A stretch of 61,824 nt of DNA, filler included, from Bipalium vagum (taxonomy: Eukaryota), in NCBI GenBank assembly GCA_037834085.1. It is 3 parts of 3 records of this genome, joined end to end, with 100 filler letters (N's around TTAATTAATTAA, not from the genome) between each part and the next. Parts side by side here need not be neighbours in the genome. Positions count along the whole stretch, not along the records: positions 38,616 to 61,824 come from JBBMKC010212038.1; 2 more parts are not named here. One strand, written 5' to 3'. Below, piece after piece: positions 4,995 through 61,293 of this stretch. How positions within the stretch are numbered: the stretch's first letter is position 1; each line of letters starts with the position of its first letter. Position numbers and translations under genes: made by a program. A model generated the notes under the pieces. That model did not search any database and was not told where the DNA came from. It saw only the letters and a list, made by a program, of their open reading frames with translations.

Positions 4995-6421
4995 CACTAA
5001 TATTATAAAGTTTATGATCACAAATAATGAAGTTTTTTAGGATTGGATATCTGGATTGTTTGGAACTGTTTTTGCTGATCCTCCTGATTCTGCTGTTGTT
5101 GGTTGACGTTGACGTAGTCTCCACAGTTCTAAAATGTACAATTTCGGAATCTCGAAGGGATAACAATACATTGGATGATTTAGATAAATTAATTGGTCTT
5201 ATTATTGCTAGAGGAGTAATTAGAAGAAGAAATTTATCGATAGCATATATGTGGGATAAACCTTGGATATGTCTACTATTTAACAAAACTATGAAAAGTG
5301 ATAAATTTTCAGATATAATGAAAAACCTACGATTTGATCTCAAAAGTGAAAGGAGAAAAAATTTGGAAACAGATAAGTTTTGTCTAGTTTCTAACCTATG
5401 GAATTCATTTACAGAAAACTCTCAAAAAGATTATATTCCTCATGAGAATATTATAATCGATGAGCAGTTATTACCTTGTAAGGTTAGGTGTAAATTTATC
5501 CAGTATATGTCAAACAAGCCTGATAAATTTGGATTAAAAATTTGGCTTGCTGCTGATGCTGAAAGTAAATATTTATGCAATGGCTTTCTATACCTAGGCA
5601 AAGATCAAACAAGATCACCAATTGATTCTTCACCCACTGATGTTGTACTAAAATTAACGAGTCCCTTTACCAACCGAGGATATAACGTCATGACAATAAC
5701 TTTATCTCATGAATCTTGCTGAAAAGTTACTGCTGAAAAAAACTAGCATTGTTGGTACAATTTGTTTAAATAGAAGAGAATTCCCTGAATTAATAAAGGT
5801 AAAAAGACCTCCTCATGATACATTAATAATGGAAACATCGAATCATATAACTTTAACGTCATATCAGTGCAAAACAACAAAACCTGTTGCCCTCTTTGAG
5901 CACCGCACATCCTGATGTCATTATTCCAAGGGTATCTAATCCTAAGAAAAACCCAAAACTGTTTTATTTTATAACAAGAACAAATTTAGAGTTGATGTCA
6001 TTGATCAAATGTCAAGGACATATTCCACGAGAGCTAGTATTAGAAGATGGCCAATGCATGTTTTTTTATAATGTTTTCGACTTCTTCGTGATAAATGCTA
6101 GGGTAGCTTTTAAAAGCGTGTGCAGAAGTACAATTTCTCGACAACAGTTTACCCATAAAGTTTGTGAAGACCACACCGGACATTCTCCATTAGGTAAAAA
6201 CCCAAATGACAATAATGACGATGACTCCTGTCCATCTGAAACATGTGGTACAACTAAATGCAGAAATAAAACAGATCGCTGTCAGATGTGCAATAAAGCG
6301 ATTTGTGGAAAATTTTCAATTAAAAAATGCAAAGGATGTGTTTTGAAATAAAAGTTAATGTAAAACGTCAATTGACGCACTTCGTGTTTGTAGTTAGTTC
6401 ATTTTCCTCGGGTTTTTAGTG
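4995..6421 (+). mobile_element. piggyBac (PGBD4-like) transposase, frameshifted
   Basis: Overlapping ORFs 5027-5722, 5709-5915 and 5887-6351 carry IDEQLLPCKVRCKFIQYMSNKPDKFGLKIW, SIVGTICLNRRE, FFYNVFD and a C-terminal Cys-rich CxxC domain. The right end is ..TAGTG|TTAA. The left end TTAA|CACTA at 4991 is tentative. Confidence 0.88.
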
Positions 6422-17079: not shown

Positions 17080-17581
17080 GGATGAACGGGCTTCAAATCA
17101 GAGAGACATTCGCAAATTGTGACACGAAACCTCACTTTGTCAATGGTAATGATGAGAACACTCTGAAACCAAAGAAAGGGTTCAATAATATTATTTTGGA
17201 AAAATTTCGGTAATTATCGGGGGAAGACGTTATTACCAACATTGATCTTATCTCAACAGGTTTGGTGGTAAGTAAACCATTAATGTGTGACTTACGATCA
17301 ATAGTAAAAGGAAAAAAGAAAGAATTATTACTGAAATACATTAATATAATAAAGGAGGTTGAACATTATGAACTAGGATTTTACAAGTCATGTATAAAAT
17401 AGATTTGTCCAGCTTTGCTTTCATGTTTCTATGACAGAAATAAAGAGCTTTGATGTCAGAAAATAATTCTTACCCGTCATGGAAAATATTAACATTAATT
17501 AATATTTTAATTTAATTAAAATTATAAATATTTTTCGTTCGATAAATTATGAGTAAAGATAATAATAGTAAAATTAAAATT

Positions 17582-22500: not shown

Positions 22501-22507
22501 TAATAAC

Positions 22508-22550
<43 letters not shown>

Positions 22551-38195: not shown

Positions 38196-38515
38196 CAGTC
38201 CTTGTAAAAAGTTTGTTCACCCCGTATAAAAAATATAAATTTTAACATATATATTAATGTTCATAGAAATGTTGTAATTATTTTACGAAATAATGGGAAA
38301 TCGTGGTCAAAAATAGATTGTGAATTAATTGGAAAGTATGGGAAAACTGTGACTAAACGTGGCATGCAATACCTGTGGAAAAAATATGTGGAAACTGGAT
38401 CCGCGCAAGATAAGATCAGAATTGGTAGACCACCCATAGTGTCACCTCAAGCTGTACGAGCTATAAAACGAATATGCCAAAGAAATCGCTTATTATCAAT
38501 AGATAAAATAACTTC
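38196..38515 (+). mobile_element. Tc1-family element, 5' end (TIR plus N-terminal HTH), cut by the contig end
   Basis: It begins TA|CAGTCCTTGTAAAAAGTTTGTTCACCCC, a Tc1-type TIR. The ORF reads LWKKYVETGSAQDKIRIGRPPIVSPQAVRAIKR (GRP motif). Confidence 0.8.
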
Positions 38516-39242: not shown

Positions 39243-42200
39243 CAACCTTCGAAGTGATACCGAACGATGTGAATTACTACTTCATCAACTTCCCAATAAC
39301 CTTGTACTGTGACCCAGAAAGCGTATTCGTACACATTTATGTGGACACGCCCGCAATATACTACAGGGATCAGCGCATGGTCGATGTTGGTGGAAGTTAC
39401 ACTGTTGATAACCAAACGATTTGCGCCTATTGTGCTACAAACATGATTACGTTCCCCCAGAAATGCTTTGAGATATCAAGTAAGAGGTTTAATTCACAAA
39501 AACAAAACAGGAAAATTAATGTCAACAGTTGTCAGAAAATCTTTGACGGTAAACTGTTTTGTTTGAATAAATCAAAGTGGGTATGTACCTTTCAAAATGA
39601 GTTTTAATTTCTACAAGATGAATTCACAACAATATTAGTTGCAGATAAACAACAACACAAAATTAAACAATGATATTATTTTTTGGCTTTGGTTGCCTTG
39701 GGAAAAATGGAATTCATATTATTTTGGGATCGGTCATTGATATTTATGAACTGTCACAGTGAAAAATAATTGGATAAAATACCAGTTAGAGATTGGGTAA
39801 TACTTTTGTTTAAATAAATACCTGTTTGAACTGGAATCCATTTTATTAATGAATATGAAGCAAGATCGAACTGGCGACCACAGAGAAAATATTACTGTCG
39901 TTACAACAAGACAAGAAAGAAAGAAGCTTCGGGATGCTTTACCAAAACAAGCTCAGTAATTATTACATTTTCAGATCAAAATATTTAATGGACGGAGCTC
40001 GTCATAAGTAGATCGTTGTACTGACGAAATCAACGAGTTTCTTAGCATAAACGATCTGTGTTTGATCGGGATTTTGGATCTTTTACTATCGAGAGAAGCT
40101 TTTAAATTGTAGATGATTTTCAAAAAGGAAACTTTGACGAAAGACGAAGAGAAAAAAATGTTTGAGGAAACTTTTATGGTTGAAAAATCATTTCTAGAGA
40201 TTGTAATGGACCTAGCAGAACTTAAGCTAAACGTCTGAGTTTCCTTGGTGGTTTCGAGTCGGAAAGAAGGATGGCTATATTCGGATTTGCGTGGATTTCT
40301 GGAGAATGAATGTAATCACAATCTCTTATCCAATGCTCAATATGTTGTTGGACTGTATGGCTGGTTTGGAATATTTTTCGTCCATGGACTTGGGACAACG
40401 GCTTTCAGTGCCAAACAGGGACAGTTTTGCTTTAATCGAATGCCTTTTGGGCTGGCTGCAGCAGCAGCCCCCTTTCAGAAGGTTATGCACTAGTTGTTGA
40501 ATGGCTTAATATCCAATGGTGTTTAGTGTATCTTGATGATATTTTGATCTACAGTCCTAGATCAGGGACACGATGATATTTTAGAAGAAGTACTTGGAAG
40601 AATAGCTAAAGAAAGTATGAAGTTAAATCCAGCAAAATGTAAGTTTTATCAACATGGATTGGTCTTGCTGGGTCACATTGTTTGTGTTGACGAAATTCGA
40701 ACAAACAAGAAAAAGATTGAAGAGATTTTGAAGGTCGAACCTTCTGATTGTGTATGTCAATTGAGATCTTTTCCGGGACTAACAAATTAAATGGAAAAAA
40801 GGCGGATATAGACGGCTTAATTTCCGATCGAGAGAGAAAAACCGCAATGGACCGACCGATACCGGAAGAGTTTTCAAGATGTAAAGGAAAGATTATTATT
40901 TCTATAATAAATAAACATCTTTTTCCAGCCGGGAGGAAATACAAAAAGGTTGTCGAATTGTCCAAATTATGCAGATCATTTCCGGAAATGATTAAAAACA
41001 TTTAATTAATTATTTTATTAAATAATAATATATTATTTTATCACTTTTAACAAAGATTTTTGTACATTTTTTATTTTTAAAAAATATTTCAATTAAAAAT
41101 TTTAAAAGAAATAAATAAATTAAAAATTTTTTTTAGTTAAATGAATAAATATATTTATCACTTCTCACATGGTATTACTTCGATTAATTAATTAATTAAC
41201 TAATTAATTAATGATAAATAATTAAATTAATGTAGGAATAAAATATAAAATGACTGAAATATAATTTAATGAAGGATAGCAGACTAAGCTCGAGATCCAA
41301 GACTGGAAACCATAACTTGATCGGCATATTCGATTTAGTCAGGGTCTTCTTTGACTTTCGGTCTTCGGTGCTCGGTTTCTTTGGTCATTTCTGCTGACCT
41401 TCGTCTATTGTTTCATACTGAAACGTTCATTTCCATGTCCCAGAGTGAGCGGGTGAACATGGAAATGAACAGCTTGGTGGTTCTTATTGACACAATGATT
41501 TTATTCCACAAAACAGTTTCGAAAAGGTTTCTGACTGGTTCCGAATAATTTTCCTATTTTGTAATGCACAGCATAAGTTAGCAAAAACTGAATTTTATTG
41601 CAGATTTCGATATATTTATTGAACCGAACAACAAGGTTTTCCTATCAAGAGTGCCTTTTGTGGTAACGTGTACGACGGATGAGTCTCTCGGTCCTAGCTT
41701 TGCCTTCAACTTCAAATTCTTGACTTATAATGCCTCGGTATTTTCAAGGGAAGACCATTCCATCCATGTATCAGGGAATGACATGAGCAAAATATGCTTT
41801 ACCTGTGGAACTTCATTACATTTTGCCAAGACTAAATGCTATGATTACTATGGTGAGTATTTGTTCTTGTCTTGCATAATTAATATTATCAAACATTTCC
41901 CAATATTTCGTTTCGTTTTTTCTTTATGAATTGTATATTAATATTATTATTTGGAAATATTTTATGAAATCTTATTAGGCCGAGGGGATGTTCTAAACTT
42001 TTCGTAAGATACATTGAAGCATTGAACAAAAACCGTTAATTTAGAAAGAATATTAAATTTGGTCAACTTAAAGAAAAAGTTTGAAATGAAAGACAGTTTC
42101 AATCAGAAAGTCTTTCGTGAAAAGTCTTATTGTGACGAGAAGTTTACAAATATAACTTGGAAGACCAGAAAACTTAAAATCATATAATTCTGAATAAATT

Positions 42201-45200
42201 AGATATAAAAAATAAATTTTGTCGCTACTGGATAGTCCTTACGAACGATTGTCACTATGACAACTTAATGAAGCCTGGTTACGGTTTTCATTGGTCAGCC
42301 GAAAATGTATTGGTCCAATAGAAATCTATTATCAAGTCATTTGAGAATGAAAGAAATGGACGACAGATTCTCATATTGAAAAGTCCTGAGTTTTCAAGAA
42401 TTGATATTTCCCGAAAGGATCTAGCAAAACGATAATTCATCAGGGTCTTTTGAACCCATTTGTCGACTTTCCGGACCACTAGTAACATCCACAAACCACA
42501 GTTCAGTCGAACCTGTTATGATTGATATTTCCTAACTCTTAATTAATACTCAACATTTTCGTTGTGTCCTCGATATAAATTATGTGTAGCTCATGTCTAA
42601 ATTTTATCCATTCTTTTTCAGATAAACCAGTAAATTTCTCCATTTCTCCGAACGACACCGATTTTTACATGAAGGATGAGGAGCTGAACTTTTATTGTTC
42701 AGTCGAGCCTCCGGAAGTGATAACCCAAAACATGATCAGTCTATACTTTAATTCGACGTACCAACCTTTTGTCCGAAAATCGGTCGGCCACATTTACATA
42801 AAAGAAGTTCTCCAACCGTACCCAAAAATCTGCTTCTTTTGTGGCTATGCGCAAAAAAATCTAGATTCACGTTGCTATACGACTTTCGGTAAGTTTTCAT
42901 CACAGATTTTTTGAGGAACAACACGTCGTTCGCCAAACTTGTTTCCAATAATGTAACCCATTGCTATCATAACGTCAGCGAAATTCTTTTGACCTTACCT
43001 GGCCGCTCACTGACCGAAACTGGCTTAACTTGATTATTTGTTTTCTCGTGCCATTAGGGATTAACGGTTTCATTTGGTTTTGGATGTTCATAGTAAAAAA
43101 TACCTTTCTGGTCCGACTAAGCGAAATGTCTTCTTTTACACAGCAATTCGGAATTGAAATTGTTGACTACCGATTTGAATAGACCTTCGATTTTCTCTTT
43201 TGACAGTTGTCAAACAAACCCACCTTTCTTCTCTTGTCGTAAAGTCTTCTTGATCTTGAACCAATATTCTTCAATTATCACATTTCTTTTTCGTCCTGTT
43301 AGTTGGTCTGACATCCCTTTAGCTTTTCTTCAAAATATAAAAATCATTTTAAAATTCCCAAAGATGTTATTTGTGGAATTAATCTCGACATTGTTTGGTG
43401 TAAGAATGCTTATAATAAAATATCTCTTTTTTCATCTTTAAAAGGAAGTAAGACTGAGAAAAAATGATAATACGAAAACCCAGACCGAGGTCCATTCCAT
43501 GTTATCTTTTGTCCCTGGGATGAGGATGAATATCTCCATGTCTGAACAATAATTCCATGATATCTATTGTTAGACGAGACCTGATGAAATCGAATCTTGT
43601 TACTTTTCTAATTCTTGTAACAAGTAATAGACCATTTCAGACCGATCAACATTGTACGAAAACCACAGGTCAAGAGAACCGAGGAACAATTGCTATTTCG
43701 GAATTAGGGTCTTCATGTAGACAAAGTGTTGATAAGTCACTAAACAAACAATTTTATTCATTTTTCTTGATTATAGAGAGCGTCTTAAATAGGAAAATAG
43801 TAGACAACACCACCAGCATCGCTATTTTTAGCTTCAAGTATTCTTCATTTGTCCTGAAGGCGAATTTCAGTCGTCCTGAAACAAGGTGGTATTTGTTCTG
43901 ATCGCCTTCGTTTGGGGTAGCAGTCAGATGACTCAACGTTCCATCACAAGCACTGCATTATGCGGAATCGCGACAATCCGTAAACAGTAGGAATTGCTAG
44001 AAATCAAAATGCATCACCAAATTAGAATTTTTGGATAGCAAAGTGTTTTAAAATGTGTTTGTCTGAGAGGCTATCCTGAGAACATTGCATATCATGAATT
44101 TACATCCATCACCGATGAGTTGAATGCAAGAATTGTGGACACATGTCCTGAAATAAATGAATCAATTCTCTGGGTGAAGTAATGGAAAGCAGTATTTCTT
44201 TATAGTTTCATGATATATTGAAATAATAATATGAATGGGTTTTTGAGCGATTGTCAGTTGTGGTTTTCAGACATTTACACAAGACTAAAGTTGTCCAGTG
44301 ATTTATCGACCACTCCGTATGTGGCTTCATGGTCTTCAAATGAAACAAATCTTTTCACTGTAGACTCCACAGCACCTCTTAATTTTCAGATGACCTTTCT
44401 TATTTATCAGAATTTTCTAAGCTTAAAAGGGCATAAATACAACCAATACATCACACATGAGAGGGGAATACAATGAGCACAAATTGACATCTTCATTGAA
44501 CTATGAAGACGTTCATGTTTTCAACTTTTTCTGATATCTTAAGGTCTTGGGCAAGCTATCGAGAGTCTTTTGCAAATTTCCTCTTATTCGAATTGTTTGA
44601 TCATTTTGAACATGTTCTCTTCATTTGGATCGCTTACAGTAATTCTAGAAACCTTTGAAGAGGGTGTGAACTTCTTTTGCGAGGAAACTGTTCTTCTAGT
44701 CCGTCACAATTTGCCATAAAAACTTTCATAATCTTTAGGAATAGTAAAAATCTACCGTTTCTTGACCTTCACAAGGCCAAAAGTCTTGGCAACAAGTTAT
44801 AAGCAATGGTGTAGAGGTAATGAGAAACAATTATCAATTCTGGTCTTCTTCTTAGATAAGCCTGTGGTTGTCAATATCAAACCAAACAATTCCGAGGTGT
44901 ATTTGTCCAAACAAGTTCTCAATGTAACTTGTGAAATCGGACCTGAAAAATACCTAACAAAAGAAATAAGGCCCAAATTATTCTTCTCTTGGCATAATGG
45001 ATCGCGCTCAAGTCAGTCGTCTTTCTTCTATACTCTGAAGGGTGACAATGTTGGTACCGCCTGCTTCAGTTGTGGGATCACCACTATCATTGTCAAACAC
45101 AAGTGCTACAGATATTTTAGTATGAGCAGATTTCCTTCATGAAACAATTTCAAGATATATTTAGCTAAGAAGACCTCCATCTACATAGAGCCAAGCGATA

Positions 45201-48200
45201 CCAATATCTACATGGGCACTGCTGAGATGAACGTTACTTGCCACGCCGAACCTCCGGAACTTATTATTGAGAAGTTGATGACAAGGATTGATTTCACCTT
45301 CCACAATTCAACCTTGGACCAGTTAGAACCGAGGATTATCACGGTGAAAGGCATCTCGATTCAGAGAATATGTTTCCAATGTAGCCATGTGATGCTGGGG
45401 ACAGCGACAAGGTGCTACGACTACTACGGTATTGTGATTTTATTGTCATTTTATTAATATTAATGACATTGTACAAAACTTCTTCATTTGTTTTACTCTT
45501 TTTAGACCAACCCGTCAGTGTTAAAATCAAGCCGGATGATGTTGGCATTTATCTGTATAAGAAGGTCATGATTGTGACTTGCACGGTGTCGCCACCGGAT
45601 GTTGTTAACGATCAAAAAATAAAGGGAATAAAATTCATTTACAATAACTCAACCTTCCGACCTACTTCCGACCGTCAGATAATCATCACTGGCAGGGATG
45701 AAGGAACCATTTGCTTTCAATGTGGTCATGCTCTGCTGACTGCCGATACCCGCTGCTACGAGTACTACGGCAAGTTTTATATTTATCATTAATATTTGTT
45801 TCCTTTTGTTATCATTATGTCTGGAAAAAAGTTTTGAATTATTTCGAAACCAAAAGAATGGATTAAAATGAAGAGACTTTAGTGATTGATCTATTTCTTC
45901 GGATTTTATCTGACTCTCGTTTGAAAACTTCAGAAATAAAAACTGATAATAAAATTTATTCAACAATCATGATGTCCTTTAATAATCTCTCCTTTTTAGA
46001 TGAAGAGGTCCACATCACCATACAACCCGTAGATAAAAATATATATCTCCCAAATAAACTAATGACGGTGTATTGTACCGTAAAACCAGAGGATGCCGAC
46101 TTAAGACTGGAGGGGATAGATTTCTTTTTTTATTTCCCACAGACAAAGGTCCAAAAACAATATCGAAATATAACGTTTTCCCAAATCACAGAAAGATTTT
46201 GCGCAATCTGCGGACACCCGGCTGTTGGAAACGTTACGAAATGTTTGGACTACTTTGGTAAGAATTTCTTTACATGTTAATATTGTCAAAATATTTTCAA
46301 ACAGTTCGTCATTTTTCATCATTCTTCAGTATAAAATTGATTTATCCATTTCAAAAGAACCGCACGAACTTTATTGGTTACTTAATAAATGAAATATGTT
46401 GCATGTGTTACAAAAACCAATTAGAATTAGTTGACTTATCAAAATGGGAGAAGTCATTTTCCACGAAGGAAATTGTTTCAGTCAAAGCGTACAAAGATTG
46501 TGATTGACAAATCGGGAATTTGGTGAGACATTGATCAGATCACACCATGTGATCAACAATTACTTGAAATTAAAGGAGAATTATGGCGGAAACTGGAAAC
46601 CATTCGGCACGTTGAAATTAAATATTTAAACGAACTGTGGAGGTTGCGGTTTATAAAATGATAAATTATTCCAGATAAACGTAGAAAAGATAAAGTTTCT
46701 CATTTAATTTCGTCTGTGACAGTAATCAAACTTGGGAAACGCCCCTTCCGGGCTTAGGTCGAAAGACAGCATGGGAATCATAATACGGAAAGGATGTGTA
46801 GAGACCAAATTTAATGTCTGATTTGATGATGGAATGAATTGGGAAAATATAGGACATTATTGTCGTAATAATCGGGGTTCGCCAGTTTCAGAATTTATTC
46901 AGTTGACCGGGTCACCCAAAGGTCACACAGGAAATACATTTATAAACAATATGCATTGAGAATAAGATAGATGAATAACATGTACATAACACCGGGGTTA
47001 AGTACAATTATATATTGATCTTTAAATGCTTTAACTTGCATCGTTTAATTTGTTGTTTACTCCTATCATAGAACATTATTTGTTATTTCAGACAAGAAAG
47101 CCTCGTTCTTAATCACTCCAAACGACACGGAATTTTACTTCAAAGACACCAGATTGAACTTCCATTGCATTGTGACACCAGACGAACTGGTCACAAAAAA
47201 CATGATCACCTTGACGTTCAATACAACCTACGAAACCTTCGTTTATAAAACCGTTACACACATTTACATCAAAGAAGTCATTGATCCGTATCCTGAGATC
47301 TGCTTCCAATGTGGTTTTGAGGAACTCGGCTTTGATTCACGGTGCTACACACTTTTCAGTAAGTTCACTTCACTTTTTGTTTTTAAAATTTGGATGAAGA
47401 CTTTGACTTTACCATTTACTCTACCTTACGCTTTTTTTCTCAAGCTTTATGTAAAAATTGTTCCCATGAAATACGAGGGGAGGTTTCCTAATTTTTCACT
47501 GCTATTTCAGATATGTCGATGGTGGTAGATATCTTACCAAACAATTCCGAGGTGTATTTATCTAAAAAGCTGCTCAATGTAACGTGTGAAATCGGTCCTG
47601 AGGTATACCTAACGAAAGAAGTCAGGCAACGAATATTCTTCACTTGGAACAATGGCACAGGATCAAGCAAAACATCTTTGTTTTATATTCTGAGAGGTGA
47701 CAACAAGGGTCTCGTCTGCTTCACCTGTGGTATTTCAAACGTCCTCAACAAAACAAAGTGCTACATATATTATGGTATGATACAATTTTTTCATGGATGA
47801 AATAAGTTCAAGATATGTTTAGGTAAGATAACCTCTATCTACATAGAACCCAATGACACAATGATTTATCTGAACGGTGTTGAAATGAACGTCGTTTGTA
47901 AAGTGGATCCAGAGGAAATCATCACCGACAACTTGATGTCCGGAATTGATTTCACCTTCCACAATTCAACTTTGGATCAGATTGAACCGAGGGTTTTCAC
48001 GGTGAAAGACATTTCGATTGAGAGAATATGTTTCCAATGTAGCCATGTGATGCTGGGGACAGCGACGAGGTGCTACGACTACTACGGTATTATGATTTTA
48101 TTGTCATTTTAAAAGTGAGTCTAAAATTACCGTTTCGGGGCTTCAGTAATAAACTGTTGATATTTTCGAGAGTCAAATATCATTCCAATAAAGGGTACTT

Positions 48201-51200
48201 CGTTGTAAAGTTGGAACAATTAATCAAGATGATTTCAACTGGCTACAATTTTGCTTTTGGTGTCCTTTGGTCTCTTCCTCGCAAACAGGCATACTGAAAA
48301 GTGTATTTGTTTGAATACCATTTGTCAACTGGTTTGAAGGTCAACGTAAAATGACCTTGTTAAGATTGTGAATACTTTTAAATATGTTTCAACTTTGTCT
48401 CTGTCTAAATTAGAGCTTTCTTTGTGACAATGAAACGCGCTTGGGTTACTCTGATACTCAAATATCAGTGATGACCATTCCAAAGAAATATTTCTTTGCA
48501 TAACATCTTTTATTTGCGTTTTCTTAATATTATTAGGGTTACTCTGTAAATGTATTAAAATTGTACATTTTACCTTTTCGATTATTTTCAGTTTTCAGAG
48601 AACTTAAATCACAAGAGAACATCTTATTAAATAATGTGAAGGCACAATATAATTCTTTAATTTTTCCCTTCATTCAATTCTTACACCTTTCTTTAATATT
48701 ATTATCTTTACTTTGTCTAGATCCATCAGTCAGTGTCAAAATCAAGCCGGACGATATTTACGTTTATTTGCTCAATAAGGTTATGATTGTGACTTGCATA
48801 GTGACGCCACCGGAAGTTGCTGACCAAGGAAAAATTAAGGGAATAAAATTCATTTACAATAACTCAACCTTCATCCCTACCTCAGACCGTCAAATAATCA
48901 TCACTGGCAGGGATGAAGGAACCATTTGCTTTCAATGCGGTCATAAGTTGTTGAACAACGATACTCGATGCTACGAGTACTACGGTAAGTTTTATATTTA
49001 TCAAACTTTTATTAATCCTTTTTTGATTTTACATTATAACTTGAGTTACTGCTATACTCAAAATGTAACGTCGTGATTGTAAACTCTTAGTACTCACTTA
49101 GTTATTCTCGTGTTCGTGAATCAAAATAACAGTAATACAATTTACTCCCAATAACCCTCAATAAATCAAAATAATTATATAAACTTCTTTTATTACAAAA
49201 TAAATTCCAGAAATCGATTACTGCACAAACTAAAATCAATGTCAAATTTCATGCTGAAAAACACAAAATCCAATTAATGCCAAATTATGTTATGACTTAT
49301 TTAACTTTCAAATCGAAATAATTACTTAAAATGAAAAGGAAATAAAATAATATCTTTCTCACCGATGCTGTCAACGGGCTCCCGGGTCGTCCGCAAGCCA
49401 TTTATCGTTGTCTAGAGGTTCCAGGGACCAATCTGTACGGGACCCATCGAAAAATCCTGCTACTTCTTGTTCCTGAAAGAGAATTAACTACAATCAGTGG
49501 CAATTTTTCCGACGCAAAAACAATTTTGAAACAATCTGCTTCAATAATCTTCCCAAGCAAGATAATTAATTGTAGAACTACATGAACAGAATTAATTGAA
49601 GGACTACTACTCTGTCTTTAGCAAATTTCTAAACTAAATTCTGCCCTTGTAGTAGTAGTTGGTCGACAACCGCAAATCTCTATTTTTGGAAGGTTATTTC
49701 CTCGAATAGCTCATTAATTCGTCATCTCGACAACGAGATAAGATTTAATAAAATTATTATTATTATTACACATATTTTTCGACCTAAGAAAGAGAACATT
49801 TGTTTTGTTAAGTGAAAAAAAATATTGCTAAAAAAGTTTAATGTATCCTATTTAGAAAAAGATGTCAAGATCACCATTACTCCCGTAGACCGAAATATAC
49901 ATCTCCCGAACAAGCCTATGTCTTTGAGCTGCATCGTAGAGCCACAGGAAGTTGAAACGAAACTGGAGGGTTTAGATTTCTTTCATTATTTTCCAAAGAA
50001 AAATGTTCAGAAGCAATATCGGTATATATATTTTTCCCAAATCACAGACAGATTTTGCGCAATCTGCGGACATCCGGCGGTGGGAAACGTTACGAAATGT
50101 TTGGACTACTTTGGTAGGATTTTTTTTAAGAATATTTCCCAACGATCTTTGCTTTTCATCTTTCTTCGTTTTTAAAATTATACAGCGGGCTCTTCTCCAA
50201 AACAAGCGAATTGTAAAATAAAATAATAATATTTGTTCCCTTTTTCAGACCAGACAGCCTCGTTCACAATCTTTCCAAATGACACTGGATTTTACTTCAA
50301 GCAGTCAGAAATCAACGTCCATTGTACTGTAACACCACCAGAACTGATCACAAAAGATATGATCACTCTAACGTTCAATACGACCTACCAGACTTTCACC
50401 AGGACATCCCTGACGCACATTTTCATCAAAGAAATCACTGATCCATATCCTGAGATCTGTTTCAAATGTGGTTTTGAGGACTTTGGCTTTGATTCACGAT
50501 GTTACAATCTTTTCGGTAAGAATCTTTCATTAATTAATTGAAAATTAATTGTAGAAGATAGTTTCTGTGAAGAAGAAATACTAATAAAAGAATTAATTCA
50601 TAGGGTTTGGTCATTAGCATCAGACTACTTAGAGAAAAGCAAATACTGAATGTCATCAAGGAAAGATTATCAAAGAAGACATATTCTGACAGAACAATAG
50701 AACAGATCATCATTGATAGGATTAACACATTAATAATTGAGACATACGTCACCAAAGGGATTGAAATTCACAAGAATTTAGATAAAAGAAATATTAATTT
50801 TCAAAATTGTTTAGAGCTTTCAAGAAGTAATAGAGAGACCTCTACGACATGAAGATCTAAAGATGATTTCAATCACAGCGAAAACCATTAAATACATAAA
50901 AAAATTAAACTCGTGCAATGTTGCCACCAATATATTGTACCAAGTTAAATGTCATTTGAACAATAGCCTATACAGCGGGTGAGACAGCGTCACCTCTTAA
51001 CACGGATTAGTGAGCACACACAATTATGCAGAGCTAGTAAAATCTTACATCATTTAATGAGCTGCTTGGCACGAAACACTAAACCTAATGCAAAGGAAAC
51101 TTAGAACATTTACCAATTGAACTGACGAAAACGTTTATTTGGACCTAACCTTTTTGACTGTTTAAATTAAGTGATGAGAGATGTTGTTTATTACTTCCTC

Positions 51201-54200
51201 CTTTTAGATAGAAATATGGTCGTCAACATCTTACCAAGCAATTCAGAAGTTTACTTGTCAAAAAAGCCCCTCAATGTCGCTTGTGAAATTACACCAGAAG
51301 ACTACCTAACGACACAGGTAAGGCAAAGAATTTTCTTCACTTGGAACAATGGCACAGGGTCCAGTTCAACATCTTTGTTACATACTTTGCAAGGTGATAA
51401 CAGAGGTACCGTCTGCTTCAGTTGTGGGATTACTACCGTCGTTGTCAAATACAAGTGTTACCGATTTTATGGTATCTATGACCCTTTGTTTATAAAGGAC
51501 GAATATCAACACTTGTTAAGGAAAGAAAACGTCTATCTATATTGAGCCCAGCAATACCAAAATCTACCTGAGCAATGTTGAGATGAATGTTATTTGTAAG
51601 GTGGACCCAGAGGAAATCATCACCGACAACTTGATGTCGGGAATAGATTTCACCTTCCACAATTCAACCTTGGACCAGTTTGAACCGAGGCTTTTCACTG
51701 TGAAAGGCATCTCGCTTGAGAGAATTTGTTTCCAGTGTGGCCATTTGTTATTGGGGACAGCGACAAGGTGCTACGACTACTACGGTATTATGATTTTATT
51801 GTCATTTTATTAATCTTAATGACTTTGCAAGAAAAATCTTCATTCGTTATACTCTTCCTAGACCAACCCGTCAGTGTTAAAATCAAGCCGGATGATGTTA
51901 ACGTTTATTTCACCAGGAAAGTATTGACTGTGACCTGCATCGTTACGCCGCCCGATATAATTCAGGATCGAAAAATAGATGGAATCAAATTCATTTATAA
52001 CAATTCGACCTACACACCTTCCTCAGACCGTCAAATAATCATCACTGGCAGGGATGTAGGAACCATTTGCTTTCAATGTGGTCATGCGCTGCTGACTTCC
52101 GATACCCGCTGCTACGAGTACTACGGCAAGTTTTATGTTTAATTTTGTCATCATCATCATCATTTTTTTTATCCTCAGCAAAGACTTTAATAATTGATCC
52201 GATTTAGACAAAGGGTACAATATCATTATAAGTCCCATAGACAGAAATATATACCTTCCAGGAGAACGTATGGTTCTGACATGCTCTCTAGACCCTGAAG
52301 ACTTGGGCTCAAAAGTTGAAGGGGTGGACTTTATTTATTATTCACCAAAGACAAATGTTGAGGTTCATTACCGTCAACTTCAATTTTGGGACATCAAAGA
52401 CAAGTTTTGCGCAACTTGTGGACATCCATTCGTTGGAAACGTTTCGAAATGTTTGGATTACTTTAGTAAGTGCTGTTTGATTTGATTTTGTTAATATCGC
52501 CTCCATATAAATGTCAATTATCTTCATTATTATTTCTCAAATTGTAACATTTCAATGAAAGGGTAACACTGGTATCTGGTGCAACATTAATATTTTGACC
52601 TATTATTGAAAATCGGTATTATATGGAGCTATTTGTTACCTAGGAAAAAATTCTTCAGAACTCAATTATAACGCTTCTTGATAAGACATATGTGACTTAA
52701 ATGAATGTGCTATGCTGAAAGTTTATGGTTTGATAGTTTATTGTAGTTCATATGTGATTGGTAAATGTGATTGGTGGGAAAGTCAGGGCACGACGTCAAA
52801 ATTTAATATTTTTAAACAACTATTTTTAGTAACAAAAATATTTGAAAATATATTGCTCTTTTATTTTGCAGACCAAACGGCTACGTTCGAAATCACTCCA
52901 AACGACACGGAATTTTACTTCAAGCAAACTGAAATCAACGTTCATTGCATCGTTACCCCAATAGAACTGGTCACGAAAAATATGATCATTCTAACTTTCA
53001 ATACGACCTACAGCACTTTTATTCGGAGATCTGCTACACATATTTATCTCAAAGAAGTCATTGCGCCGTTTCCGGACATCTGCTTCAAATGTGGCTTTAC
53101 AGCACTAGGTTTTGATTCACGGTGTTACACGGTTTTCGGTAAGTACTTATCGTTGAGGGACCCTCGGAATTCCCAACCATGACGACGTTCTTGCAAGTAA
53201 ACATCAACAAATAATCATTTTTTTGTTCCCTAGCTCATCTTAATGAACCATTTTGTCGGTTTGGCTAAAGGGCTTTAATTGTCAGGTTATAATATTGGTT
53301 ATCTATTGTTTCCCGCCTTCATAGATATGCGGATCGAGATCCACATCTTACCGAACACTTCGGAAATTTATTTGTCTAAAAGGATTCTCAATATAACTTG
53401 TGAAATTGGACCTGCTCAATACATGACGCCGGAAGTACAGAAAAGAGTATTTTTTTCCTGGAAAAACGGCACGGGAACGAGCAAAACAATTTTGACCTAT
53501 ACTTTGAGAGGTACTAATGATGGTCTTGTCTGCTTCACCTGTGGTATCAAAACTGTTACAGTCAAGCACAGATGCTACAGATACTACGGTATGTATTCAT
53601 GCTCTACTGACATGATCTTATTTCGAGGACTGTTAAGACAAGAAAGCTTCGGTCCAAATTGAGCCCAATGACACGAAAATCTATCTGAGCGACGTTGACA
53701 TGAAGGTGGTCTGCAGGGTGGAGCCAGAAGAAATTGTCACTGACAACCTGATCACAGAAATCGACTTCACCTTCAACAACTCTACTTTGGACCAGATAGA
53801 GCCGAGAATTATCATCTTAAAGGGCATAACCGTCGAGAGGATATGTTTGCAGTGTGGCCATATTGTACTGGGTACTGCCACAAGGTGCTACGACTACTAC
53901 GGTATTGTGATTTTATTATTATTATGTTCTATGTCCAACTGGGACCAATTTTCATTCCGTTCTTAACATTTTGTTGACGGCGCACGTTGAGGAAACGTGA
54001 CATCGTGTGACTAAATTGAAAATAAAAAAGAAATGAAAATGTTTTCGATAAAAACAAAATAAATTAATCAAATAATTAGTTAATAAAAGTAATTTGATTA
54101 ATAGGAAAATATTAAAAGCACAAAAACAAGACCAACCAAAACTAATGAAGATTGAGTAGTTGAGATGACAACATTCTGACAAACCTGGCTCAGTGAACAC

Positions 54201-57200
54201 CTCTTGGAAACCCTCTCCAGTCTCAAGGGGTCCGAAACCGCCCCTCGGGACACAGCATACCAACAACAAAACACAAATCTATATTCAGGCATTTCCTTTA
54301 GCAACGATTTACAAAAAATTTCTTTATCTTCCAAGTTCATACAGGTGTTATATATTGGATGTTTGAGAACTGCTGGTTGATGGATTATTTTCAATTGCTT
54401 CGAGTACCACCTTATAATCCACGGTTCCAGGTCGATCAAAACATGGCTCATTCTGAAGATGCGTGTTCCTTATTAAATTTTTTGAACCAGCTTTTGGCTG
54501 TGCAAATGGCGAAGTTTTTTTCTTTAGTGTCAGATATTCTCGTGGGCGCTTCCTTGAAATTAAAGTGCTGTTTCCATTAATAACTGAGAAACACTATAAT
54601 TTCAAAATTTTCCATATTGCTAAAACACAAAAAATAGATTACGAAAACAACCTTTTGAGATATATATTACAGTTCATATTAAAGCTAATTTAAAAATCTA
54701 TAAATTGATACATTACTTACCGAAATCAATAAAATATATCTGCTTTAAATATCACTTTATATATACTGTACAAAAACTCAAGATTATGTAAATTTTGATT
54801 GGATAAAAATCGAACGAATGAAATTCCAAAAAGACAAATACTTGATAGTGTATGTTATGTTTTAGTTCTTTTTTTTATGTTGGATAAAGAAATTAATTCA
54901 GCTTTAACATTGTAACTTGAAATTAAAATAATAAATAATAATCTTTGATAAAAATTAAATAATATTTAGAAATGAAATATTCTTGGAGAAAGATTAAAAT
55001 TATAATAAAAATAATAATAATAAAGATAATATGTTTCAGTGATATTCGTGTGACAGTGAACATTTTTATCCCTTTTACTTTGTTACAGACACGCCGATCA
55101 GTATTAAAATCAAACCGGACGACGTTGACGTTTACTTGCCTAAGAAGGTCTTGATTGTGACCTGCACTGTGTCGCCAACCGAAATCATTGATGATCGCAA
55201 AATAGATGGAATAAAATTCATTTATAACAATTCCACCTTTAAGCCTTCCTCAGACCGACAAGTAACCATCACTGGCAGAGATGAAGGAACCATTTGCTTT
55301 CAATGTGGACATAGGATGTTGATTAACGATACTCGGTGTTATGATTCCTATGGCAAGTTTTAATTTTTTATTAATGGTATTTTTATTATTATCAACCGGT
55401 TTTGGATAACTATTATTCAACCAAAAAAAGCTCAGAATAATCTTTAATAAATGATTTCGTTCAGCAAACGAAGTCAAGATCATCATTAGCCCAATAGACA
55501 GAAACATTTATCTGCAGGATGAGCGCGTGGAAATGTTTTGTACCATTGATCCAGTACACTTAAGTTCACGCGTTAAGGGCGTGGATTTTACTTCTTACTC
55601 CCCAAATAAAACCGTTGACAAGCAGTACCGTCAAATTACCTTTTGGGATATGAAAGATACGTTTTGCGCAACCTGTGGACATCCGTCCATAGGAAACGTC
55701 ACGAAATGTCTGGACTACTTTGGTAAGTATTATAGTTCTTTTCGAATTGATTTAAATCTTCAATTTTCATGATTCCTTATCTTGTATTGCTGACCTGCAA
55801 AAACAATCAGGTTACCAATATTTCCTTCGGAAAAGATTTTTTTTTCTTTTACCGTTTCTATTTCTATTCCCTTTTCTTCTGTTTATTTTTATTTTTTTTA
55901 CTGTTTGCTTTTCTTATAACTTAATCATCGTTTCAGTATATCAAAAGATCAGAAGGGTGCAACAGTTAAGACTGAAAACTTTTATTATGTCAATAATGAC
56001 AGAACTAATCAATGTAAATTTTGCAAGAAAAATATAAATAAACTAAGATTGAGCCTAAATTAAAAAAAATTACTCATAAAAAGATTACATTTATTTAATA
56101 GTCAACATTTCTCTGAATCCCACTCACTGTGTTTAATAGTCCACTAAGATATCGCCTAGTACTTTTCTGACACACACCTTCACCAACCCTGACACTAGAC
56201 CTCAAAATAGACTGATAAATAAAATAATTAAAACAACGAAAGTAAATGAAGAAAACTCAAAAGCAGTCAATTGAAGATAAATCAATTTGAACTATTGATC
56301 ACAATTCACAAAAAAGGATGAACTCAAATCTATTGGTTCAATTACGATATTGAAAAGAGAAACACGATACGGTTCATCGAATTATAACAAATCTTCTTGG
56401 TTTCTAGATCAACGACGGAACCAAACTATGATATACAGTCCACTTTTCTACTCACCTTTCAAAAGAAATCACACCAAATAATAATTATAACTAGGCGTCA
56501 AATGCTTTCCTTTCCTTTTATAGATTTTTTGGATTTTGAATGAAGAAATATTGTGATTGCATAGAGGGGCACAATAGTCTTAATTTTAGTCAATGTTTAC
56601 TAAAGGTCTTTCTCAATTAAGTTCTGTAGAAAGTTCCTATTTACATCAGAATCATGTCTGAAAGAGTGAAGGGTTATTAAATTCCATTCTTTAAATTTAT
56701 TTAAAACGAACACTGACATTTTCTTACGTAAGGAGTTCCGGACTAACCTTGTTAATTATCGAAAGTGGTTTCATAGCATTTTTATGCTTAAAATTCATAT
56801 AGAATTCAATTCCAAACATTGTCTTTCGTCGGTGATTGCTCACCATCCGGACACCAACTGTTTGGTCGTCCTTGGATTTTCGCATAATTATTAAACAATA
56901 TGAACGATTAAAACAAGTGGAATTGATACCTTTGACTGTAATACATGCTGATTTCTGCAGATTTATATAATACGTTGATGAAAAACGACAACGTTTATGA
57001 AACGACCTAATAATAGTAATAATATTATTATTATTATTTTAATGAGAATTTGCTATTTTATTTAATTCTTAGAGCTTTGGGTAAGTCATCTGTAGGGTGG
57101 AGATGCAATTTGTTTATATTATTAAAATGAATTTTGTTTTTCATGGTCAAATAAAAAGAGGTTATAATAAGCCATGTCTCTCTGTTTCCCGTTAGAAAGT

Positions 57201-60200
57201 CAATTTTCTGTACCTACTTATACATCTCTCAGGGGTCTTCCCTTATTATTGCTCCTTTCTTATTCTTCTCAACTGTTACGAAGAACGGTATCTTTAAGTA
57301 TTCACGAGCCATTTCATTTGACAAAAAGTCCATTGAAATGGTGTAAATCTTTCCAGATCAAAATGTGACGATAAAGGTCATCCCAGATGACAGCAACGTT
57401 TACTTTATCAACACGGAGAAAAATTTTTATTGCCTTATAAAACCACCGGAACTGCTCACCCAAAATCTCATTTCCAACATTGTCTTCGAGTCGAACTATT
57501 CCGATAGCACAAAGCTTTCCGAAACCCACATTTTTATAAAGAAGGACATGAACAGCTATCCGAAAATATGTTTCAAATGTGGCCACACTCTGTTCTATTT
57601 GGATACGCACTGCTATGATCCGTATGGTAGGTTTTGTTTTCATTTATGTATTTAATAATAAATGATCCTTTTAAAAAGATCGCGTCAGATTAATATCATT
57701 TATTAAAACACACTCAAATTTTTAAGTCCACTCAACATTAACATTAAAATATTTTGAAAGACCGCTTTTAACATTATTTTATTTTTATTCTTTTTCCATG
57801 ATAATTATTGAGTTTTCCTATAACTTTTACAAAGATTTTTGTAACGAGTGGTCGGAAAGTTTTGGCACAAAATATATTGGTAAAGAAATTGTAAAATCTT
57901 GAAATTAGCAATCAATCAATGTATACCTCTAAAACCCTTTATCTCCTCTCTGTATATCTGTCTACGCTCGAAAACGGATAACGGTTGTATCGCAGCCGAA
58001 GAAGTAAACTCTTTGTCTGTCGGTTTCGTATGGAAATATATTTTATTTAAATCTTTGTCGATTTTTAGATATATCACGATAACTACATAAAAGTGGGTTT
58101 TGTTTGAATGAATCCATGTTTGAAAATATTCTAAATTTAGTTACAAATCTGGATTTGAAAATTGATTTAATTCGATTTTATTATGAAAATGGAAATTCCA
58201 CTACGTTTGGAATTTAGGAGAAACCAAACGCCAAAGTAATTTAATTTGTGAAAATATTGGAAGAAAATGGAAATGTTGTCAATGTACCTCATTGATAAGA
58301 CGTCCATTCAAACATTATTACGGGAAAGAAATATTCCACCTGCCTCGGTTCAACGAATATTATAAGGAGAGAAGTTAAATCATTTTAAAATACAAATATT
58401 TCATGAGCTAAAACCAGATGATTATGATCAACTGAATAAAATTGGTCTGTAGTTTTTGCAGCACCAGGATATACTACACACCATGTGATTATTGGTTTCA
58501 GACTACTCTTAAGGCAAGGGTTTTCCTTTACCAAAACCAACCTACTTCAAACGGATAAACAAATAAACGAAGAATATTCCTGTTTCACTATTAAAATCAA
58601 TAAATCCCAAAGAGTACTTCATAAAGATTGAAATTAGAGTAGAGATATCAGCAAATAAAAGCTTACACCATTTTTATTATTTAAACTTTATAATATCCAT
58701 ACTGATATCGTTACATTATCAATTGGTCGTGGTTGGAGAAGTAAAAATTCCCACAGTCTGATTGCCACTGTTTATAAATCGTACATATTTTATGATGACC
58801 ACAGACTGGTGCTCGCCTTTTGGGGGGGGGCAGCTTTGTTGAGACCTGGTTAAAACGTAATACAAAAATTACTTTTTTCTTAAATGTAATGTGGAAATAA
58901 TATTTTTCAAGTTTGGCCCGTTAGGCTTGTTGAACAATTAAAAATAAGTTTCCCAAAGGTGCAACCCATCCACGACTGATTGTCAAAATGAAAACCTTTG
59001 CTATATTTTTTATAAATGTTAAACTTTTTCCTGTTTTAGGACATCACGAAATTGTTATTGAGCCAGCCCATGTGAACATATATTTGCCTGCTGTTCCCAT
59101 GAACGTAGAGTGCAACGTGTCCCCGGGTGACCTGCTCATGGTTATTGGAAACATTGACTTTTTTAATATCACAGCTCCTTATAATCAAACTGAACCGCGA
59201 AGGGTAACGTTTGGTCCTCTCACTGCCCAAAAGGTCGATAATGTTTGCTTATCTTGCGGTCACAGAATCACCAAAAATGTCACGAAATGTTATAAAAGAT
59301 ACGGTAATGTTATTATTGATATTTATTATTTACATTTTCAAATTATGTGTCCCTTATACACGTTTATCATCGAAGTAGTTTGATTAAATATCAACAATCT
59401 TCATTTTGTTTGGTAATGATCAAGAAGACCGTCAAAGGGTTTGAATTAGACTAAAGGTACAACGGAATATTGACGCAATAAATTTCGCTTAATTTGAATC
59501 TCTGTTTTTTTCTTTTCTTTCTTCTCTCTCTTTCTTTTTTTCTGTGTACAACAAATACCTTCGGGATCTACCAGGCCGATTGAAATAAAACGTTAAGTAA
59601 TTAAAACAAAGCAATATTTATTCCTTTGACATTGTTCACAGATTGCACATGAATGATCAGGTCACAATCCATATTTCGGTTTGCTACTGTCTTATTTTTT
59701 CAATTCACGGAATGCGGACATACGAAAAATGTTCTTCTATTTGCAGGAGGCGTTCCTGTGTCAAATGTTACATGTTTTTGGTTAATTTGGTCGGGAAATT
59801 GAACCAGTTGTCTGACTACGTTGACTAATAACTGACACCGACTGAGTTGTTTCGTTTCCTCCCTACCTGATTGGATCCTAATAATAGCAGCCTTCGTGCC
59901 CTTGATATCGATCATGTTATAAAAAATGACCGTTTTCTTTTCTTTTTCACAGAGTAGCAAGTTACTTTTTGATCCATTTGATCAAGTTCACCTTTGGTCT
60001 TTTTGTAGGTGAAAATATTTTCTGTTTTTTTTTCAGTTTCCTCAACCCGTTTCTCATGAGGCGAGGCACTACGTAATGTGACAACTTTTTATCTTCTGGG
60101 GGAATATGAAACTATTGTCGAGAAATCTTTACATTCAAATGCAACCGTCTATGTAACCGTCTACCAACTGTGACAGCAAATTCCTTAGGTAATTTGGGTT

Positions 60201-61293
60201 GTTTTGTGTATGGTTCCAATGCATGTTATCTTTGTCATAAACAAATATTCCGAAATATCTCAACAGGTGAAAAGTTATCAAAGGTTTTATTCCTAAAACT
60301 AGGCTTTTAGTAACCGATTTTTCTATTTTCTTGAAAGGCAAAATTTACAAACATTTCAAATGTTATGTGGGGCCTCACAGACTCAATTGGTACGTTTAGG
60401 GTTAATCCAGACTACATCCCAGGCAATGACGTGATCAAGGAATGCTTATTCCCAACCAAATCTCAAGATAACAGATGATCCTGAGTAACCTGGGTTTATT
60501 GTAAATTGAGATTGCTTTACGAGGTACAAGATCATTGACATGAGATCCAAGAGCATTGGAGTGACCTCTTGTCTGATATCTTCATTAAATGCCTTTCACA
60601 CTTCATTATAAAACTCCTTTCCTTTGTAGTTGCTATTAGTGATGTAAGAGCAAAATAATTAAAGCACGAAAACATATTTTTCTATGAAGTTTCGTTAACG
60701 TTTATCAGAACCACGAGGAGAACTTCATTTACATATTACTTTTTATGAAGACCAAACCCATAATGGATGACATGTTCGCTTATCAATGCACTTCACAGAG
60801 GAACAATAAAGACAAATGTGTTTTCCCCTTTCGTCAAAGGGTGCGACGAGTATAAGACCACTGAAGGACCAATTATAGATTTATACACAAAATTTGCTTT
60901 TGCTCTCCCATCAACTTTCTTTATGATAGTCACAAATGGAAAATCAGTTCGCCGCCTTCAACTGTTAAAGCTTCTCAACAGTCCTTTGACAAAAACTGAG
61001 GATTGACCTTGGAATATATGTTTCAGATAAGCCAGTCACGTTCTCCATTTCCCCGAACGACACGGAATATTACTTTAAACAAACCGAATTGGACGTCTAT
61101 TGCGTGGTCAACCCCGAGGAGATGGTTACAAACAATCTCATCTCTCCCGTGTTTAACTCGACGTACATTGACGCAGTTCTAAAGTCCCCTATCCATATTT
61201 ACATAAAGGAGGTCACTCACCCGTTTCCAAAGATCTGTTTCCAGTGCGGTATCGTTGAGCTGAACTTTGTTTTGCGCTGTTATTCCCTGTTCG
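39243..61293 (+). CDS. Giant multi-exon protein of >=25 tandem divergent Ig-like 4-Cys domains (one exon per domain); partial at both ends
   Basis: Exons: X1 39243-39479, X2 41604-41852; A1 42622-42888, B1 44856-45119, C1 45165-45428, D1 45506-45769, E1 46000-46257; A2 47092-47358, B2 47511-47774, C2 47823-48086, D2 48721-48984, E2 49856-50113; A3 50249-50515, B3 51208-51471, C3 51521-51784, D3 51862-52125, E3 52208-52465; A4 52872-53138, B4 53325-53588, C4 53638-53901, D4 55089-55352, E4 55465-55722; then 57357-57626, 59040-59303, 61027-61293. Every exon follows an AG, ends at GT or GC, is a multiple of 3, is phase 1-1 and has no stop. The total is 6555 nt (2185 codons). The Ig-like assignment is inferred from the motif pattern. 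Confidence 0.85.
40180..40750 (+). mobile_element. Ty3/gypsy reverse transcriptase relic (intron X1-X2)
   Basis: Frameshifted reading gives ICVDFWRMN, YFSSMDL, TAFSAKQGQFCFNRMPFGL, CLVYLDDILIYS and MKLNPAKCKF..LLGHIV. Confidence 0.85.
50610..51090 (+). mobile_element. Penelope-like element relic (RT C-terminus plus GIY-YIG endonuclease) in intron A3-B3
   Basis: It reads LNVIKERLSKKTYSDRTIEQII, then TNILYQVKCHLNNSLYSG..RHLLTRISEH..SKILHHLMSC. Confidence 0.65.
54340..54600 (-). mobile_element. Mariner N-terminal fragment in intron C4-D4
   Basis: The minus strand reads TAKSWFKKFNK..NEPCFDRPGTVDYKVVLEAIENNPSTSS. Confidence 0.6.
58090..58660 (+). mobile_element. Heavily decayed Tc1/mariner-superfamily relic
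   Basis: It reads WEENGNVVNVP, FKIQIFHELKPDDYDQ and a degenerate PDxTPCDYWF-type segment. Confidence 0.45.
59446..60401 (-). mobile_element. Internally deleted piggyBac
   Basis: There is a TTAA|CCCTAAACGTACC terminus at 60401 (minus). The minus strand reads TIVSYSP..KVVTLRS..IFTYKKTKGELDQMDQKVTCYSVKKKRKR and VIFYNMIDI, matching the piggyBac YNxTKGGVDxxDQ region. The far end is approximate. Confidence 0.65.

What the first reader, a model, noticed from the sequence alone, without database searches (positions are those of the whole stretch)
42622..55722. Higher-order five-domain super-repeat (ABCDE)x4 with frozen exon lengths and freely varying introns
Seen: the order A-B-C-D-E repeats four times with identical exon lengths (267/264/264/264/258). 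Equivalent introns vary greatly: A-B is about 1.97 kb in unit 1 and 152 nt in unit 2, and C-D is 77 nt in units 1 and 3 but about 1.19 kb in unit 4. The exons at 57357 and 61027 are A-like and suggest a degenerate or different periodicity continuing past the window. Inference: the array grew by block duplication of a 5-exon unit, as in titin or nebulin super-repeats. Retained order suggests a structural period or specific inter-domain interfaces.
Basis: partly seen in the sequence, partly recalled or inferred. Interest (0 to 1): 0.7.

Follow-up and report, generated by a model that had tools for sequence, protein, structure and literature searches.

The report
Giant Ig-like protein, five-domain repeat
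An unidentified animal has a run of at least 25 one-domain exons, twenty of them in four copies of a five-exon block, that likely encodes one long, sugar-coated extracellular chain of predicted antibody-like domains with no Pfam match; such block repeats are known from CR1 and titin, so the domain is the new part, not the principle.

Summary
Twenty phase-1 exons (267/264/264/264/258 nt, four times) lie among 25 that join into 2,184 open codons. Same-class domains are 51-84% identical, others 17-45%; dN/dS is about 0.2. The domain has four invariant cysteines, no Pfam match and a predicted Ig-like fold (pLDDT 90.5; Z about 8 to ICAM/NCAM domain 1). N-glycosylation sequons are threefold enriched (54 vs 17), so it is likely extracellular, unlike titin or nebulin. 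Corrections: the latest duplication spanned B-C-D-E-A, not A-B-C-D-E; introns do not all vary freely (B-C stays 45-49 nt; a 35-nt block at the C donor is nearly invariant; 3 of 4 D donors are GC); unequal crossing-over keeps the order without selection, so order alone shows no interfaces. Best reading: a CR1-like block-duplicated adhesion or spacer glycoprotein made of an undescribed Ig-like domain, ten relatives of which sit in metagenomes. Neither gene end nor any RNA was seen.

The parts
39243..39479 (+). Exon X1, most divergent domain (237 nt), first domain exon seen
41604..41852 (+). Exon X2, divergent domain (249 nt)
42622..42888 (+). Exon A1 (267 nt), older A-type edge copy outside the latest duplicated block
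44856..45119 (+). Exon B1 (264 nt), basic domain
45165..45428 (+). Exon C1 (264 nt); preceded by a 45-nt intron
45410..45444 (+). 35-nt block across the C1 donor, one variable position among the four units (also 48068-48102, 51766-51800, 53883-53917)
45506..45769 (+). Exon D1 (264 nt), GC donor; the domain that was modelled
46000..46257 (+). Exon E1 (258 nt)
47092..47358 (+). Exon A2 (267 nt)
47511..47774 (+). Exon B2 (264 nt)
47823..48086 (+). Exon C2 (264 nt); 48-nt intron before it
48721..48984 (+). Exon D2 (264 nt), GT donor
49856..50113 (+). Exon E2 (258 nt)
50249..50515 (+). Exon A3 (267 nt)
51208..51471 (+). Exon B3 (264 nt)
51521..51784 (+). Exon C3 (264 nt); 49-nt intron before it
51862..52125 (+). 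Exon D3 (264 nt), GC donor
52208..52465 (+). Exon E3 (258 nt)
52872..53138 (+). Exon A4 (267 nt)
53325..53588 (+). Exon B4 (264 nt)
53638..53901 (+). Exon C4 (264 nt); 49-nt intron before it
55089..55352 (+). Exon D4 (264 nt), GC donor
55465..55722 (+). Exon E4 (258 nt)
57357..57626 (+). Exon Y1 (270 nt), sister to the A clade, 35-42% identical to A
59040..59303 (+). Exon Y2 (264 nt), weakly E-like (29-39%)
61027..61293 (+). Exon Y3 (267 nt), inside the A clade (48-59%); ends in a donor, so the gene likely continues past the window

Best explanation
Twenty-five symmetrical exons, twenty of them in four copies of a five-exon block, likely splice in order into one long extracellular glycoprotein made of a predicted Ig-like domain that would work as an adhesion or spacer rod with repeated binding surfaces, in the manner of CR1's long homologous repeats. 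Shown: exon structure, open joined frame, classes, purifying selection, sequon enrichment. Predicted: the beta-sandwich fold. Inferred: two disulfides per domain (C25-C72 between strands B and F, C69-C83 between F and G, from strand alternation only); almost no linker between domains, hence a fairly stiff chain of about 100 nm (4.2 nm per domain is a recalled figure); a signal peptide upstream and an anchor downstream, neither seen. History (inferred): an old duplication of A-B-C-D-E, then two internal duplications of B-C-D-E-A by unequal crossing-over between paralogous exons five apart, which adds or removes exactly five exons and so keeps both frame and order. Exon lengths stay fixed because each exon is one domain under selection; introns drift by insertion, except where weak splice sites hold them.
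For: 25 of 25 exons phase 1-1, joined frame 2,184 aa without a stop; no further or decayed copy in a six-frame profile scan of the window. dN/dS 0.17-0.25 for the six unit pairs. Model pLDDT 84.3 and 90.5 with strands A, A', B, C, D, E, F, G; top structural matches ICAM-2/3/5 and NCAM domain 1, Z 8.0-8.4, rmsd 2.4-3.0 over 78-79 residues. Exactly four Cys in all 25 domains; 54 sequons against 17.3 +/- 3.8 (largest 31) in 2000 shuffles; no hydrophobic segment (largest 19-residue mean 1.46). Register: synonymous differences A1-A2 26 of 52 against 58 of 240 for B-E of units 1 and 2 (Fisher p = 3.5e-4), while A2-A3 is 14 of 60 (p = 1.0). Class-specific constraint: dN/dS 0.25 at 28 columns that vary between classes; B net +4 to +7, A and C net negative in all four units. 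Introns of 51, 52 and 80 nt in the neighbouring glypican gene show that 45-49 nt is near this genome's normal small size.
Against: No transcript was seen, so in-order splicing is inferred. No signal peptide, membrane segment or GPI signal is in the joined frame; two upstream leader candidates are unconvincing. Fold matches are middling: no Foldseek match at E <= 0.001, and Z near 8 may reflect a common sandwich. The canonical Ig Trp and Tyr are missing and the profile comparison with a mussel titin Ig has probability 8.9%. All ten relatives are single-exon fragments; no multi-domain relative exists among 1.84 billion representatives. Single-class quartets for A, B and C do not resolve a topology, and two A1 distances are saturated. 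Function as adhesion or spacer rests on analogy.
Confidence: 0.65

Rival explanations
1. Same gene and protein, but the period of five has no function: it is only the footprint of unequal crossing-over, and the classes are interchangeable spacers. This rival concerns the period, not the nature of the protein.
For: Once two blocks exist, crossovers between paralogous exons keep the order by themselves (inference). The register is shifted and the flanks (X1, X2, Y1-Y3) are not periodic. Multi-domain duplication is the common mode of repeat growth (PMC1553488, abstract and section 3 part 2).
Against: dN/dS is 0.25 even at columns that differ freely between classes; charge and several sequon positions are constant within classes; no single exon was lost or swapped over dS of about 1 although the phase allows it.
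Confidence: 0.4
2. A Dscam-like diversity locus: exons or blocks are alternative cassettes, used by skipping, mutual exclusion or separate promoters, to give many isoforms.
For: Symmetrical phase lets any exon be skipped in frame. Weak donors are kept: GC in 3 of 4 D exons; GTATT with a near-invariant U-rich block in all four C exons, intron positions +7 to +25 being 0.79-1.00 identical against 0.37 +/- 0.12 (largest 0.68 of 244 pairs) between classes. Multi-exon cassettes exist in chelicerate sDscam (PMC4835542).
Against: Like exons are interleaved, not clustered as alternative sets. None of the six internal E-A and A-B junction introns of units 1-4 after A1-B1 holds a leader-exon candidate, and three are only 135-186 nt. 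The 25 longest of 519 inverted repeats are mostly AT-rich and show no recurring docking site. The C-donor block has no compensatory pair change in 22 predicted pairs. U-rich tracts after weak donors are common in metazoans (PMC2766253, abstract), and gene conversion could also give the block.
Confidence: 0.12
3. An intracellular titin- or obscurin-like ruler, or a zinc-binding repeat using C-x2-C.
For: The only named hit among representatives is a mussel protein labelled TTN (E 3.1e-5); titin domains appear among weak Foldseek rows; a RanBP2-type finger of RBM10 matches at E 0.46.
Against: Threefold sequon enrichment and an even, invariant Cys count; C69 and C72 lie on one straight strand in both models, not in a knuckle turn; top VIA matches are cell-surface proteins.
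Confidence: 0.05
4. Assembly artefact: collapsed or mis-joined haplotypes.
For: Only one sequencing run holds the stretch, perhaps the source itself; no listed contig spans the whole array.
Against: Paralogous exons are only 61-84% identical in DNA, the longest exact shared run is 46 nt. Contigs of that run match without differences across A1-B1-C1, E1-A2, E2-A3-B3-C3, A4-B4-C4 and D4-E4, at depths 21-28.
Confidence: 0.02

Closest known systems
Complement receptor 1 (CR1) long homologous repeats (PMC3265835, passages seen)
   Same: Extracellular chain of one small domain type organised in four higher-order blocks that arose by intragenic duplication.
   Different: CR1 uses sushi domains in blocks of seven and its copy-number alleles and ligands are known; here the domain is Ig-like, the block is five, and neither ligand nor copy variation was seen.
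Titin Ig/FN3 super-repeats and nebulin seven-module super-repeats (nebulin: PMC1553488, passages seen; titin: search listings and recalled)
   Same: Position-specific classes recurring at a fixed period, with a recurring exon pattern.
   Different: Those are intracellular and match a filament period; this protein is rich in N-glycosylation sequons with four Cys per domain, and each domain is one phase-1 exon.
ICAM-2/3/5, VCAM-1 and NCAM domain 1 (Ig superfamily)
   Same: Best structural matches to the predicted domain, Z 7.4-8.4 over 78-79 residues.
   Different: 9-15% identity; no sequence match in PDB or Pfam; C / C-x2-C / C pattern; Phe where the core Trp is expected.
Hydractinia Alr proteins (PMC9546547, passages seen)
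   Same: Invertebrate Ig-fold domains that lack canonical sequence motifs and carry their own cysteines.
   Different: Alr domains lack the B-F cysteines, are few per protein and form a gene family; no sequence comparison with Alr was made here.
Chelicerate sDscam 5' cassettes (PMC4835542, abstract and first part of Results)
   Same: Tandem multi-exon units coding Ig domains.
   Different: Each sDscam cassette has its own start and promoter; here the units join in frame and junction introns hold no leader candidates.

Membership tests
Higher-order (super-repeat) domain array, CR1/nebulin/titin type | Similarity peaks at a fixed multi-domain lag | tested here: met
   Peaks at lags 5, 10, 15
Higher-order (super-repeat) domain array, CR1/nebulin/titin type | Domains group by position class | tested here: met
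   Five clades with outside relatives added; C unresolved without them
Higher-order (super-repeat) domain array, CR1/nebulin/titin type | All blocks in one transcript and protein | not testable with these tools
   Joined frame is open; no RNA data could be laid
Higher-order (super-repeat) domain array, CR1/nebulin/titin type | Block number varies between alleles or species | not testable with these tools
   One DNA run only
Ig superfamily, V/I-set | Ig-type beta-sandwich | tested here: met
   Predicted, pLDDT 90.5; Z 8.0-8.3 to ICAM/NCAM domain 1, a middling score
Ig superfamily, V/I-set | Core Trp in strand C (the pin, as defined in PMC9546547) | tested here: not met
   Phe43 nearly invariant in strand C; 19 of 25 domains have no Trp at all
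Ig superfamily, V/I-set | Tyrosine corner at the start of strand F | tested here: not met
   No conserved Tyr before the C-x2-C motif in the 25-row alignment
Ig superfamily, V/I-set | B-F disulfide at canonical register | tested here: inconclusive
Ig superfamily, V/I-set | Match to Pfam Ig profiles | tested here: not met
   0 of 32 members match an Ig family at E <= 0.5
Dscam / sDscam diversity locus | Clusters of like alternative exons, or cassettes with own leader and promoter | tested here: not met
   Classes interleaved; no leader candidate in six internal unit-junction introns
Dscam / sDscam diversity locus | Docking-selector RNA pairing | tested here: inconclusive
   No recurring site among the 25 longest inverted repeats; no 12-mer complement of the C-donor block from 39 kb on; no orthologous DNA for comparison
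Dscam / sDscam diversity locus | Isoform diversity in transcripts | not testable with these tools
   Needs RNA
Titin / obscurin | Intracellular I-set and FN3 domains without sequon enrichment | tested here: not met
   54 sequons against 17 expected; no I-set or FN3 match

The most novel reading that the evidence does not exclude
A lineage outside arthropods and vertebrates has built a giant cell-surface recognition or ruler molecule from its own, undescribed Ig-like domain, and tunes it by regulated splicing: the conserved weak donors (GC at D, the near-invariant block at C) are control points for skipping single domains or whole five-domain blocks, giving a combinatorial set of lengths and surfaces.
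Probability: 0.12. Interest if true: 0.75.

Novelty: new variant of a known kind. Interest (0 to 1): 0.4.

Why it matters
The architecture itself is a known kind. What is added: (1) an Ig-like domain family with its own cysteine pattern that Pfam, NCBIfam and PDB sequence searches do not recognise, present in other unnamed samples too; (2) a period of five, whereas Ig repeats mostly grow by one or two domains (PMC1553488); (3) a compact natural record of how a super-repeat grows from the middle with a shifted register, and of which splice signals stay fixed while introns drift. If the period matches a partner, the gene would give a direct test of whether super-repeats are kept by function or only by recombination.

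Tried and rejected
No whole genome is held for the window, so paralogues and the gene's ends could not be sought. Pfam: no match above cut-off for 18 single domains or 32 aligned members; NCBIfam none; PDB by sequence one chance-level row. Word-index searches found no longer relative and only one of the known short ones, so they are insensitive here. The Atlas gave no answer. Two alignments had no stretch conserved enough for a locus search; a degenerate DNA pattern that finds 12 of the 25 exons in the window gave 9 metagenome loci, none with a full domain (8 without a match, one partial C-x2-C match in L009), so no related genomic array was obtained. No RNA holder listed. Contig depth is no copy number: 22 of 30 bins lie at 23-48, 8 are higher. 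Steric-hindrance exclusion of B and C was rejected because glypican introns of 51-52 nt exist next door. An RNA structure at the C donor has no covariation. A selected read-through tail after the C donor (short hydrophobic peptide) was considered; T-rich intron starts give such peptides after most exons. No complex prediction was run, as no binding is claimed. Paper searches found no description of this domain; they match words only and miss most subscription papers, so this is weak. No supplements were read.
Full report
Setting. The window is AT-rich animal DNA (29% GC) with transposon remnants and a divergent glypican gene on the minus strand. No genome is held. Earlier scan notes on other pieces call the animal probably flatworm-like; I did not test that.

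Observation. A motif scan with splice-site calling gives 25 exons from 39243 to 61293, all phase 1 at both ends. Twenty lie between 42622 and 55722 with lengths 267/264/264/264/258 four times; two divergent exons precede them and three follow. Joined by coordinates they give 2,184 codons without a stop. A six-frame profile scan finds no other copy in the window. The 30 within-class pairs are 51-84% identical, the 160 between-class pairs 17-45%; similarity by distance peaks at lags 5, 10 and 15.

Not an artefact. Paralogous exons are 61-84% identical in DNA with dN/dS 0.17-0.25 per unit pair; the longest exact run shared by two paralogues is 46 nt. Contigs of the one run that holds the stretch match without differences across five multi-exon pieces. 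That run may be the source, and no contig spans the whole array, so this is not independent proof of the order.

The domain. Four cysteines (C25, C69, C72, C83) and P9 are invariant. There is no Pfam, NCBIfam or PDB sequence match. AlphaFold2 on domain D1 gives a beta-sandwich, pLDDT 84.3 with 25 sequences and 90.5 with 32. The best structural matches in both wide searches are ICAM-2, -3 and -5 domain 1 (Z 8.1-8.4), with NCAM and VCAM-1 tied; Foldseek gives Ig domains only at E > 0.01. The core Trp and the tyrosine corner, defining features as given in PMC9546547 (passages), are absent, so I call the domain Ig-like and do not file it as V- or I-set. Disulfide pairing is inferred from strand alternation; I had no coordinates. 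Sequons number 54 against 17.3 +/- 3.8 in 2000 shuffles, the main evidence for the secretory pathway. A search of 1.84 billion representatives found 11 proteins: ten single-exon ORFs from unnamed ENA, JGI and Logan contigs (E 1e-22 to 3e-6) with the same cysteines, and a weak mussel titin Ig repeat. None of the ten falls inside classes A-E; best identities are 34-51%. The domain family is thus shared with other organisms, while the five-class period is so far seen only here.

History. With the relatives added, all five classes are clades; Y3 sits inside A and Y1 is sister to it. Without them C was unresolved. The concatenated units favour (1,2)(3,4) (AU p 0.98 against 0.017 and 0.002), driven by class E; A, B and C alone resolve nothing. 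Synonymous differences in B-E rise from 0.24 (units 1-2) to 0.30-0.33 (unit 3) and 0.40-0.42 (unit 4). A1-A2 is 26 of 52, far above B-E of the same units (p = 3.5e-4), while A2-A3 is 14 of 60, equal to them. So the latest duplicated block was B-C-D-E-A, inserted in the middle of the array, which fits the general finding that repeats grow by several domains and from the middle (PMC1553488, abstract and section 3 part 2). The same paper reports that Ig repeats mostly grow by one or two domains, so five is atypical. Crossing-over between paralogous exons five apart keeps frame and order unaided; retained order is therefore no evidence of interfaces. Some class-specific constraint does exist: dN/dS is 0.25 at the 28 columns that vary between classes (0.11 at the 28 conserved ones), and B is basic, A and C acidic in every unit.

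Introns. They are not all free. B-C is 45-49 nt in all units; glypican introns of 51, 52 and 80 nt show this is near the local small size. Its weak donor and pyrimidine-poor acceptor may need intron definition (inference). Three of four D donors are GC. A 35-nt block across the C donor has one variable position in four units although C4 is at dS 1.45-2.1 from the others. It shows no covarying structure. A U-rich enhancer after a weak donor, as described for TIA proteins (PMC2766253, abstract only), is the likeliest cause; gene conversion is the rival. Introns in the periodic core are shorter than in the flanks (median 144 nt of 18 against 1,679 nt of 6, p = 0.0008, A1-B1 counted with the flanks). 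Some long introns carry genome-wide repeats and one a reverse-transcriptase remnant.

How it likely works. One long transcript (inferred) yields a disulfide-stabilised, glycosylated chain of abutting domains, anchored or secreted, with divergent N-terminal domains at the tip and four blocks that add length and repeat class-specific surfaces, as CR1's blocks of seven repeat its binding sites (PMC3265835, passages). Neither end is visible: an N-run lies about 0.6 kb upstream of the first exon, two leader candidates further up are weak, and the last exon ends in a donor. A Dscam-like cassette locus is disfavoured because classes are interleaved and junction introns hold no leaders (PMC4835542, abstract and first part of Results), but regulated skipping is not excluded.

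Verdict. Real, and mostly as described. The super-repeat principle, fixed exon lengths and drifting introns are known and expected. The undescribed domain, the period of five, the shifted register and the conserved donors are the additions. New variant of a known kind; interest 0.4.

Noticed in passing
window 19515-31190, minus strand: Divergent glypican gene in at least nine pieces (Pfam Glypican E 2.8e-18); 63% identical over one exon to an unnamed Logan protein, which is closest to Drosophila Dally-like among solved structures and has a long Ser-Gly-rich tail. It points away from the Ig-like gene.
   Followed up: partly
window 15727-17097, minus strand: A 457-codon stop-free stretch without a Pfam match, downstream of glypican; probably an exon of another gene.
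   Followed up: partly
window 40231-40790: Decayed reverse-transcriptase remnant in the X1-X2 intron (RVT_1, E 7e-4, below cut-off).
   Followed up: partly
window 159-440, 5018-6348, 38208-38513: Mariner transposase fragment, piggyBac-type transposase fragment and a Tc1-like helix-turn-helix fragment.
   Followed up: partly
window 45770, 52126, 55353: GC donors kept after D1, D3 and D4; D2 has GT.
   Followed up: yes
window 54700-54750 and 58050-58560: High-copy repeats inside the C4-D4 and Y1-Y2 introns (summed contig depth in the hundreds).
   Followed up: no
   Followed up: no
window 31850-32220: A short GC-richer island between glypican and the Ig-like gene, with a weak leader-exon candidate at 32161-32218.
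   Followed up: partly
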